Positions 3,818 through 24,900 of a stretch of 64,000 nt of DNA are shown here, piece after piece. A program made the translations under genes and the position numbers. Under the pieces are notes generated by a model that saw nothing but the letters and a program-made list of their open reading frames with translations, ran no database searches and was not told where the DNA came from. Numbering within the stretch: position 1 is the stretch's first letter; each line of letters starts with the position of its first letter. Source of the DNA: Octopus vulgaris (lineage: Eukaryota); assembly GCA_951406725.2 (NCBI GenBank), contig OX597823.1, positions 9,920,001 through 9,984,000 of the forward strand. The letters run 5' to 3'.

Positions 3818-3994
3818 ATTATTATCATTCGTATTATTATTGTATACAATTGTTTCTTGGACAGTAAAGAGGCGCTTTAGCCCGACTGCTTTAGATTCTT
3901 TTTGGAATACACTTATAATGCTGCATACACGCCCGTGTTTTGTGTATGCAGAAATTATACTACACGTACTCGTCTCATATATATATATATGTGT

Positions 3995-4025
<31 letters not shown>

Positions 4026-4027
4026 CG

Positions 4028-4076
<49 letters not shown>

Positions 4077-8640: not shown

Positions 8641-8947
8641 GGAGGCGCAATGGCCCAGGGGTTAGGGCAGCGGACTCGCGCTCGTAGGATCGCGGTTTCG
8701 ATTCCCAGACCGGGCGTTGTGAGTGTTTATTGAGCGAAAACACCTAAAAAGCTCCACCAGGCTCCGGCAGGGAATGGTGATCCCTGCTGTACTATTTCAC
8801 CACACTTTCTCTCACTCTTTCTTCTGTTGGCCTGCTCGCTTAGCCAGCGGGGTGGCGTCATTCGAAGGCTAAAACAATGTGAACGCATTGTGACCAGCGA
8901 TGTGTAACAACATCTGATGGTCTGGTCGATTACGGGATCACGTGATA
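8641..8947 (+). mobile_element. tRNA-derived SINE family C (OR-type head, tail type 1) with TSD
   Basis: ggaggcgcaatggccca..ggttagggcagcggactcgc..ggtttcgattccc head; flanked by a duplicated atataaatacac. Confidence 0.88.
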
Positions 8948-9224
8948 TAAATACACATAAAAAGTATAATAGGAATGGATTAAACAGGGAACAGAAAATG
9001 GGAAATGTAAAAAACAATGTTACTTTTTAATCATATTTTCTGACTACGCTTTACGAAACCTAAACCAATGAACCATAATGAAACTAAAAACCGCACCGGT
9101 ACCTACAAAGAAGCACATGACCAGAAGCATTAACATAAAAAAAGGAAATGAGAAAACAACCACTTTCACAAAACTATACTCTCATACCTATTAATATTCA
9201 TATGAACCAAGCATACACACAGAA

Positions 9225-23551: not shown

Positions 23552-23758
23552 ATGTGACCGCGTGTGCACCGTTGGTGATTCTTTTTCCTCAGTCTTCCCT
23601 TCTCTGGATCTTTCCTTTTCCTATGTTTCTAACGAAGAGCTCCGCTCGAAACGTTAAACCCTCTTTCTTCCCTTCCTTCTTGGGCGTTCAATAATACTAT
23701 ATTTGTTCCACGTCCTCGCGTTGTTGTGTTTTCTTTTGGTGTTTTCATGTTTGGATTA

Positions 23759-23807: not shown

Positions 23808-23811
<4 letters not shown>

Positions 23812-24395
23812 TTGTATTTAGGAATGGTCATTTTACCAGTTTAGCCAATAAAAACATACGCACTATATATTTGGTGTTATTTTGCTTCAGCGTTATTTAT
23901 TTTTTACATTAATCTTAATCTTATTTCGGCCAGAGTTCTTTCGTCACACTCCTGTGACCGCAGCAGTGGTCTTTTGCTTACTAAACATCAGCCATTTTGT
24001 ATTTCTATTGTACGTGTCTTCATTCGCGCATGCGTATTTCTCTATATGCGTCTATGTTTAGTTAGTGTGTGTGTGGGGGGGATGCCTGTAATAATTGTAT
24101 CTCCTGTTTATATACGTTCGTGTAATTTGTTTTTGTTTGTGTTTATTCTTATAAAGACACATAAAATAGAAATACACAATGGCTGACGGTTAGTAAGGAG
24201 AGACACACAAATATGAAAGAAGAAAGCAAAGGACCACTGATGCGGTCACTGGAGTGTGACGAAAGAACTCTGGCCGAAATAAGATTAAGATTAATGTAAA
24301 AAATGAATAACGCTGAAGCAAAATAACACCAAATATATAGTGCATGTGTTTTTATTGGCTAAACTGGCAAAATGACCATTCCTAAATACAACAAT
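23808..24395. mobile_element. Head-to-head inverted element (~200-bp arms) with an HHR-like motif in each arm (family P2)
   Basis: gttgtatttaggaatggtcatttt... mirrors ...aaaatgaccattcctaaatacaac. Motifs at 23928-23972 (-) and 24231-24275 (+). Confidence 0.8.
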
Positions 24396-24451
24396 ATCTG
24401 TTTCAACACATGATTTCACATCAAAAATATTGCAAAACAAATATATAAACG

Positions 24452-24511
<60 letters not shown>

Positions 24512-24603
24512 ATGTATATATATAATTGCAACGTGGAAGGTGTTTGTTAGCCATTTCAGAAACACACAAAAGCCGTTCGATTCACTTCAACATTTAAGTT
24601 TAA

Positions 24604-24653
24604 TTTGTCAAAATATTTTCGTCGCTAAAATCCGCGACCTGTTCACTGACAAA
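24604..24653 (-). ncRNA. Mirror copy of the G3-C8 hammerhead
   Basis: Exact reverse complement of 24669-24718. Confidence 0.72.
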
Positions 24654-24668
24654 AATCCGTGCTGCATC

Positions 24669-24718
24669 TTTGTCAGTGAACAGGTCGCGGATTTTAGCGA
24701 CGAAAATATTTTGACAAA
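24669..24718 (+). ncRNA. Type I minimal hammerhead ribozyme with compensatory G3-C8 core
   Basis: tttgtca-GTGAACA-G-gtcgc-ggatttta-gcgac-GAAA-atat-TT-tgacaaa: 7-bp stem I, 5-bp stem II, palindromic stem III. Confidence 0.72.
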
Positions 24719-24852
24719 TTAAACTTAAATGTTGAAGTGAATCGAACGGCTTTTGTGTGTTTCTTAAATGGCTTACAAACACCTTTCACGCTGCAATTGT
24801 TTTCGTTTCAGCACACGATCTCAGATCAAATCACTTGCTATGCGAGTACATC

Positions 24853-24900
<48 letters not shown>

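What the first reader, a model, noticed from the sequence alone, without database searches (positions are those of the whole stretch)
24604..24718. Natural hammerhead with swapped tertiary pair (G3-C8: GUGAACA), present twice back-to-back
Seen: tttgtca-GTGAACA-G-gtcgc-ggatttta-gcgac-GAAA-atat-TT-tgacaaa with perfect stems I and II, and an identical mirror copy. Established: C3 and G8 form a tertiary Watson-Crick pair in the active HHR, and the double swap preserves that pair. Inference: the simultaneous C3G+G8C change in otherwise intact stems implies selection for catalysis. A standard CUGANGA search would miss it. The predicted triplet (UUU) is also atypical.
Basis: partly seen in the sequence, partly recalled or inferred. 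Interest (0 to 1): 0.85.

Follow-up and report, generated by a model that had tools for sequence, protein, structure and literature searches.

The report
Swapped-core hammerhead in octopus Penelope retrotransposon
This is the end repeat of a Penelope-like jumping gene, present thousands of times in this genome, whose small hammerhead RNA has two paired core letters swapped (G3-C8 instead of C3-G8); related elements keep that pair in other forms, so it likely still self-cuts slowly, but cutting is untested and the mirror copy is the usual inverted by-product of insertion.

Summary
Observation confirmed: identical 50-nt motifs at 24669-24718 (+) and 24604-24653 (-). They are the pseudo-LTR of a Penelope-like retroelement (RT + GIY-YIG ORF; near-full copy L097), with the ORF's ATG 92 nt downstream of G3. 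G3-C8 is the family state: 5,786 exact genome matches (reversed control 0), and 75 of 78 scorable copies in a sample chosen independently of the core. At the homologous site, 10 relatives found by protein homology all have a Watson-Crick 3-8 pair (6 C-G, 4 U-A), so the swap is likely compensatory. The mirror copy is the ordinary 5'-truncated inverted copy (61 of 70 pairs carry the Penelope 'tail' on one arm only); opposite strands cannot form a dimer. U17 is ordinary for these ribozymes. Against: inserted copies come from uncleaved RNA (1 of 100 starts at the cut site), G3-G8 mismatch copies are in unexplained excess, and activity is untested. I found no natural G3-C8 in print, but could not read Lunse 2017. 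Earlier scan notes report the same swap in two other genomes (unchecked). New variant of a known kind.

The parts
24666..24856 (+). 5'-truncated pseudo-LTR copy of a Penelope-like element, long ('tailed') 3' end, followed by (AT)n
   Evidence: blastn to ORF-linked copies
24524..24669 (-). Inverted 5'-truncated pseudo-LTR copy with the short 3' end; begins at the family's commonest 5' end (-23 from G3) and overlaps the + copy by about 4 nt
24669..24718 (+). Minimal type I hammerhead motif with G3-C8, extra G before stem II, palindromic AAUAUU helix III, U17; predicted cut between 24711 and 24712
24604..24653 (-). Identical hammerhead motif in the inverted copy (G3 at 24646, C8 at 24641)
24676..24682 (+). 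Variant core strand GTGAACA (C3G + G8C)
24768..24856 (+). First 89 nt of the element's RT-endonuclease ORF (first ATG at 24768), cut off at the long 3' end
   Evidence: in near-full copy L097 this frame runs on into the ORF and aligns by eye with the sister family's N-terminus
24800..24856 (+). Optional ~55-nt 'tail', present on the + copy and absent from the - copy
   Evidence: loose ends at both positions in laid contigs

Best explanation
The motif is the minimal hammerhead in the pseudo-LTR of a Penelope-like retrotransposon, its C3-G8 core pair is exchanged to G3-C8 throughout the family, and the exchange was likely kept by selection on the active master elements for a slow self-cleavage that would need an RNA dimer or the element's protein. 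Shown: position in the pLTR 92 nt upstream of the first ATG, family-wide G3-C8, Watson-Crick 3-8 pairs in all relatives found, inverted copy with one-sided tail. Inferred: transcription likely starts about 23 nt upstream of G3; uncleaved RNA is the template for insertion; reverse transcription starts at two sites inside the ORF start, one per target strand, giving one long and one short arm; cleavage after U17 would cut tandem read-through RNAs into units. Also inferred: a non-C residue at 17, common in this clade, likely made the swap tolerable, because G3 would pair with C17 and extend stem I.
For: Linkage to the ORF: 22 of 25 loci retrieved with the ORF end carry GTGAACA within 1.5 kb downstream (a 23rd further out); near-full copy L097 has the unit at both ends; GIY-YIG PF01541 E 1.6e-5, above its cut-off. 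Family state: 5,786 matches; G3+C8 in 75 of 78 scorable copies of 100 picked by a downstream anchor, none C3-G8; same core in four loop-II subfamilies, whose shared variants fall in 5 of 9 loop-II columns, 0 of 18 core, 0 of 10 stem II and 1 of 14 stem I columns, the last an A-U to G.U change. Clade covariation: a descriptor blind to positions 3, 7, 8, 9, 17 and stem I gave 9 sense and 0 antisense hits in 20 related loci (0.21 expected in shuffles), all 9 Watson-Crick at 3-8 (5 C-G, 4 U-A); the sister family in this genome has C3-G8; 12-motif alignment: 3-8 paired 12 of 12, stem I 80.6% paired, covariation 0 of 500 shuffles. Engineered C3G/G8C partly restores cleavage in a Penelope hammerhead (PMC11167929). 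A G3-C8 variant was more active with G17 than C17 (PMC3884650, one passage, data not shown there).
Against: No cleavage data. Only 1 of 100 copies starts at the predicted cut, against 55 of 100 at -29 to -15, so cleaved RNA is not the insertion template; PMC11167929 found catalytic mutants insert normally in vitro, and Naiad elements spread without hammerheads (bioRxiv 2021.04.23.441226). G3-G8 mismatch copies number 173, about four times the mirror change (38 vs 9), including both arms of one pair and a cluster on contig C16. Within the family, 0 of 18 core columns against 5 of 78 downstream columns is too few changes to show selection by itself. G-C arose once in my sample and the tree does not resolve its branch. 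The descriptor was written after first-pass hits were seen; 11 of 20 loci gave no hit; 2 of the 12 aligned motifs (this one and the older C3-G8 family) were not picked blind to 3-8. The active monomer fold is 6.8 kcal/mol above the MFE, and the swapped dimer (-27.2) does not beat two monomers (-29.4).
Confidence: 0.68

Rival explanations
1. Vestigial or non-catalytic hammerhead: cleavage became dispensable in this lineage, the core drifted, and G3-C8 was fixed by chance or kept only as part of a fold that the element's protein binds.
For: Insertion templates are uncleaved; G3-G8 copies are in excess and sometimes on both arms; catalysis is not needed for insertion in vitro (PMC11167929); two relatives also carry A9C.
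Against: Exactly two transversions that restore a Watson-Crick pair, with U4, G5, A6, A9, G10.1-C11.1, GAAA and U16.1 intact; 10 of 10 blind relatives are paired at 3-8; G8 copies are scattered over all subfamilies rather than forming one lineage.
Confidence: 0.2
2. The ribozyme cleaves, but its job is translational: cutting leaves a 5'-OH RNA starting 56 nt upstream of the first ATG, which is translated without a cap, while uncleaved RNA serves as insertion template.
For: Geometry (cut at G3+36, ATG at G3+92); uncleaved RNA is the template; type I hammerheads in viral 5' UTRs drive cap-independent initiation (PMC13725137, abstract and passages).
Against: No expression or translation data; shown only for RNA viruses and reporters; the 5'-end pattern suggests a normal start 23 nt upstream of G3.
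Confidence: 0.1
3. The two back-to-back copies form one functional unit at this locus (paired ribozymes or a regulatory hairpin gene).
For: The two motifs are identical; the locus could yield a long hairpin RNA.
Against: They lie on opposite strands, so no transcript holds two sense motifs; head-to-head pairs with one tailed arm are the family norm (61 of 70); the neighbouring sister-family insertion has the same layout; miRNA matches are far below gathering score.
Confidence: 0.02

Closest known systems
Minimal type I hammerheads (min-HHRs) of metazoan Penelope-like elements (Cervera and De la Pena 2014, PMC4209133)
   Same: Located in the pLTR; extra nucleotide between 9 and 10.1; G10.1-C11.1; GAAA; short palindromic helix III; NUH site; often as dual motifs on opposite strands close together.
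   Different: G3-C8 instead of C3-G8 or U3-A8 (0 of 56 rows of their Fig. S3 have G3-C8 by my reading); extra nucleotide is G, their consensus is H; stem I is 7 bp.
PAc (Poseidon of Anolis carolinensis) hammerhead and tail (Frangieh et al. 2024, PMC11167929)
   Same: Hammerhead at the pLTR/ORF start; two RT start sites inside the ORF give an optional tail; AT-rich targets; uncleaved RNA is the template.
   Different: PAc is naturally C3-G8 and its C3G/G8C form was engineered; here it is the natural state. Here the ATG lies downstream of the ribozyme, the tail is ~55 nt, and the ORF has a Cys-rich linker.
Natural U3-A8 core variants (Perreault et al. 2011, PMC3088659; S. mansoni Cercyon elements)
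   Same: Natural covariation of the 3-8 pair.
   Different: U3-A8 needs two transitions and can pass through a U.G wobble; G3-C8 needs two transversions through a mismatch.
Neptune/Nematis clades of endonuclease-bearing PLEs (as described in bioRxiv 10.1101/2021.04.23.441226)
   Same: C-terminal GIY-YIG, Cys-rich motif between RT and endonuclease, tandem and inverted pLTRs, tail on one end.
   Different: Clade not fixed here: no named reference elements were available for a tree.

Membership tests
Penelope-like element (EN+) | Single ORF with RT followed by GIY-YIG endonuclease | tested here: met
   998-aa stop-free stretch in L099 with YVDD and DKSG motifs; PF01541 E 1.6e-5 above cut-off. Pfam RVT_1 does not hit this protein; it hits two relatives below cut-off.
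Penelope-like element (EN+) | Pseudo-LTRs from tandem arrangement, ORF starting inside the repeat | tested here: met
   L097: unit at 3882-4057 running into the ORF and again at 8835-9022.
Penelope-like element (EN+) | Inverted 5'-truncated copy with a tail on one end only | tested here: met
   61 of 70 scored head-to-head pairs have one short and one long end; one more dropped at a locus edge; about 7 pairs are copies of one amplified composite.
Neptune/Nematis clade | Zn-finger motif in the RT-EN linker and phylogenetic placement | tested here: inconclusive
   Four-cysteine linker seen; no reference elements in the tree.
PLE minimal hammerhead | Consensus CUGANGA core strand | tested here: not met
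   GUGAACA; positions 3 and 8 exchanged.
PLE minimal hammerhead | Watson-Crick pair between positions 3 and 8 | tested here: met
   G-C here; 12 of 12 motifs paired, CG 7, UA 4, GC 1.
PLE minimal hammerhead | Stems I and II, G10.1-C11.1, GAAA, extra nucleotide after 9, palindromic helix III, NUH | tested here: met
   (stem pair probabilities 0.69-1.0 in the predicted 5' RNA).
Hammerhead ribozyme | Site-specific self-cleavage after H17 | not testable with these tools
   Needs an in vitro assay or 5'-end mapping.
Rfam hammerhead families | Covariance-model score | tested here: not met
   No hammerhead family hit at gathering score or up to E=10; the neighbouring C3-G8 motif is missed too.

The most novel reading that the evidence does not exclude
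This is the first natural, catalytically working G3-C8 hammerhead family on record: one Penelope clade uses three of the four Watson-Crick pairs at the core 3-8 position, crossing a two-transversion gap to G3-C8 because its cut site avoids C17, and the variant then spread to more than 5,000 copies; descriptor-based ribozyme censuses miss a whole class of such elements.
Probability: 0.45. Interest if true: 0.65.

Novelty: new variant of a known kind. Interest (0 to 1): 0.5.

Why it matters
G3-C8 was known to me only as an engineered rescue mutant that proved the tertiary pair of the active hammerhead. A natural, high-copy family with this pair, beside close relatives with C3-G8 and U3-A8 at the same site, is evolutionary evidence that the pair and not the letters is under selection. 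It also gives a ready set of natural alleles to test the open question of why Penelope elements keep hammerheads that are not needed for insertion in vitro. In practice, CUGANGA or YUGANRA descriptors will call such families ribozyme-less.

Tried and rejected
Rfam: no hammerhead; miRNA hits are hairpin artefacts below gathering. Expression: the look-up of sequencing runs listed no holder on record as RNA; read laying used a copy truncated inside the core, so it says nothing on positions 3-8, other species or cleavage ends; it only shows loose ends at the two 3' ends and far more pLTR than ORF-start sequence. Tree of 16 RT cores: the finding's branch is unresolved and 5 rows are under half filled, so number and direction of 3-8 changes are not established. 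G3-G8 as an ancestral intermediate lineage: not supported, such copies are scattered over subfamilies. Splice acceptor as cause of the 5'-end peak: a branch-point/pyrimidine/CAG signal is there, but many copies keep the AG and share no upstream exon, so a transcription start is preferred, unproven. First pair count used a mis-registered structure, redone. Literature: searches for natural G3-C8 (general 9, 47) gave only engineered mutants. Lunse 2017, Przybilski and Hammann 2007 and Nelson and Uhlenbeck 2008 are not held; Lunse 2017 catalogues Penelope hammerhead variants and could already hold G3-C8. Supplement file 1 of PMC4209133 and the sequence dataset of PMC3088659 were not read.

Full report
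Observation. The described motif is present at 24669-24718 (+) and, letter-identical, at 24604-24653 (-). Both fold stems I and II. They sit in a 133-nt inverted repeat between (AT)n tracts. A relaxed scan of the 64-kb window gave five short-helix-III hits: these two, two other hammerhead-like motifs within 1.1 kb, and one long-loop hit that I regard as chance. Rfam has no hammerhead match here.

What it belongs to. A DNA search of G000 gave 348 candidates, 40 scored, at 96-100% identity; all 30 fetched main matches have G3 and C8. Longer copies run upstream into an ORF end; of 25 loci retrieved with that ORF end, 22 carry GTGAACA within 1.5 kb downstream. [quoted passage not shown] L097 is near full length, with the repeat at both ends; at the 5' end it runs into the ORF, whose first ATG lies 92 nt after G3. 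This is a Penelope-like element, and the motif is at the place where such elements carry a hammerhead (PMC4209133, main text parts 1-2 of 4; PMC11167929, parts 1-2 of 4). The host is likely an octopus: a protein named from Octopus vulgaris matches G000 at 100%.

The mirror copy. The repeat has two 3' ends about 55 nt apart. Of 70 scored head-to-head pairs, 61 have one short and one long arm (5 long/other, 2 long/long, 1 short/other, 1 short/short; one more dropped at a locus edge; about 7 are copies of one composite). The window's pair is one of the 61. This is the published PLE layout: inverted 5'-truncated copy, tail on one end (bioRxiv 2021.04.23.441226, 12 passages), with the tail explained by two RT start sites in the ORF start. 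I infer one cDNA primed from each target strand. The motifs are on opposite strands, and read-through RNA folds into one hairpin (-220 kcal/mol), so the duplication is no evidence of function.

G3-C8 is the family state. The scaffold pattern with G3-C8 has 5,786 exact matches, reversed control 0; G3 with another base at 8 has 333; C8 with another base at 3 has 156. A downstream 19-mer has 10,178 matches. In its first 100 places (all on contig C1), 78 have all seven core positions aligned: 69 GTGAACA, 75 G3+C8, none C3-G8. The core is shared by at least four loop-II subfamilies and by an older ~87%-identical group. Shared variants fall in 5 of 9 loop-II columns, 0 of 18 core, 0 of 10 stem II, 1 of 14 stem I (A-U to G.U) and 5 of 78 downstream columns; this fits constraint but is too few changes to prove it.

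Relatives. The sister family in the same genome (57% protein identity, many intact ORFs; one insertion is the window's neighbour) has CTGATGC at the same place: C3-G8 with A9C and U17. An older family found by pattern has C3-G8 in nearly the same scaffold (173 matches; it resembles the sister family by blastn). Of 76 metagenome loci I scanned the 20 whose match nears the ORF end, with a descriptor blind to positions 3, 7, 8, 9, 17 and stem I but written after first-pass scans. It gave 9 sense hits 97-397 nt after the match end, 0 antisense, 0.21 expected in shuffles; 11 loci gave none, two of them lacking downstream DNA. All 9 are Watson-Crick at 3-8: 5 C-G, 4 U-A. In a 12-motif alignment the 3-8 pair is CG 7, UA 4, GC 1; stem I, not used in selection, is 80.6% paired with two-sided changes at all three pairs; 0 of 500 shuffles reach the covariation score, and slid controls are far lower. 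Stem II and 15.1-16.1 were selected for, and two rows were not blind to 3-8. The RT tree leaves the finding's branch unresolved.

How it likely works. In 100 copies chosen without regard to the core, 55 begin at -29 to -15 from G3 (mode -23) and 1 at the predicted cut (+36), that one at an inverted junction with microhomology. So the inserted template is uncleaved RNA that likely starts at about -23; an extra G often precedes this point, as a copied cap would give (inference). This matches the in vitro result for PAc, where catalytic mutants insert normally and cleavage needs the protein. The active monomer fold costs 6.8 kcal/mol over the MFE, in which G3 wobbles with U17; the palindrome AAUAUU allows a 6-bp helix III in a dimer (-27.2 against -29.4 for two monomers). 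I therefore expect slow cleavage that depends on a dimer or the protein and acts on tandem read-through RNA. Engineered C3G/G8C partly restores activity, and a G3-C8 variant worked better with G17 than C17 (PMC3884650, one passage, data not shown). U17, present in 7 of the 12 motifs, likely made the swap tolerable. U17 is ordinary: 24 of 56 rows in Cervera's Fig. S3 (my count, supplement file 2 parts 1-2 of 3), one with the same UUU triplet.

Against. Nothing here shows cleavage. G3-G8 copies number 173, 2.9%, against 0.5% C-to-G at six other ACA sites (4 of 813) and 38 versus 9 for the mirror change in position-matched lists that I counted by hand. They occur in all subfamilies, sometimes on one arm only, once on both arms, and in a cluster on C16. 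Recurrent mutation, duplication or copying of mismatched RNAs are all open.

Novelty. Natural covariation in what I could read is U3-A8 only (PMC3088659 section 8 and supplement legends; PMC4209133); 0 of 56 Fig. S3 rows are G3-C8. Searches found G3-C8 only as an engineered mutant. Lunse 2017, the most relevant catalogue, was not held. Other papers were seen as passages or first parts only. Two earlier notes of this scan describe a G3-C8 motif behind Penelope-like RTs in other genomes (unchecked, not counted as support). Verdict: real, a new variant of the Penelope minimal hammerhead with good comparative support and untested activity; interest 0.5.

Noticed in passing
window 23810-24143 (-) and 24159-24453 (+): Head-to-head pLTR pair of the sister Penelope family; its hammerhead has C3-G8 but A9C (CTGATGC at 24237 +; the - copy at 23966 has a further A6C change). 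The family is young, with many intact ORFs of about 1,310 codons.
   Followed up: partly
window 23625-23660 (+): Third hammerhead-like motif (CTAACGA, G5A in this copy); another copy reads CTGACGA downstream of an inverted GIY-YIG-like fragment in L004. Three hammerhead-bearing repeat families lie within 1.2 kb, separated by (AT)n tracts.
   Followed up: no
G000, pattern; cluster at C16:1.6-10.6 Mb: Unexplained four- to six-fold excess of C8-to-G copies (G3-G8 mismatch) across all subfamilies.
   Followed up: partly
L072-L096 (older group): These copies carry a fixed inverted piece upstream that can pair with stem I and GUGAAC, apparently an inverted junction that was itself amplified. A second amplified composite shows in 7 of 100 copies with the same +3 junction.
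   Followed up: no
L038, 340 to 21 nt upstream of G3: Possible retained intron: donor-like GTAAG and branch-point/pyrimidine/CAG ending 21 nt before G3; no spliced copy recognised.
   Followed up: partly
L131:4973-5017: Related element's hammerhead has U15.1-A16.1 instead of A-U; L133 combines U3-A8 with A9C. The clade seems unusually tolerant of core changes.
   Followed up: no
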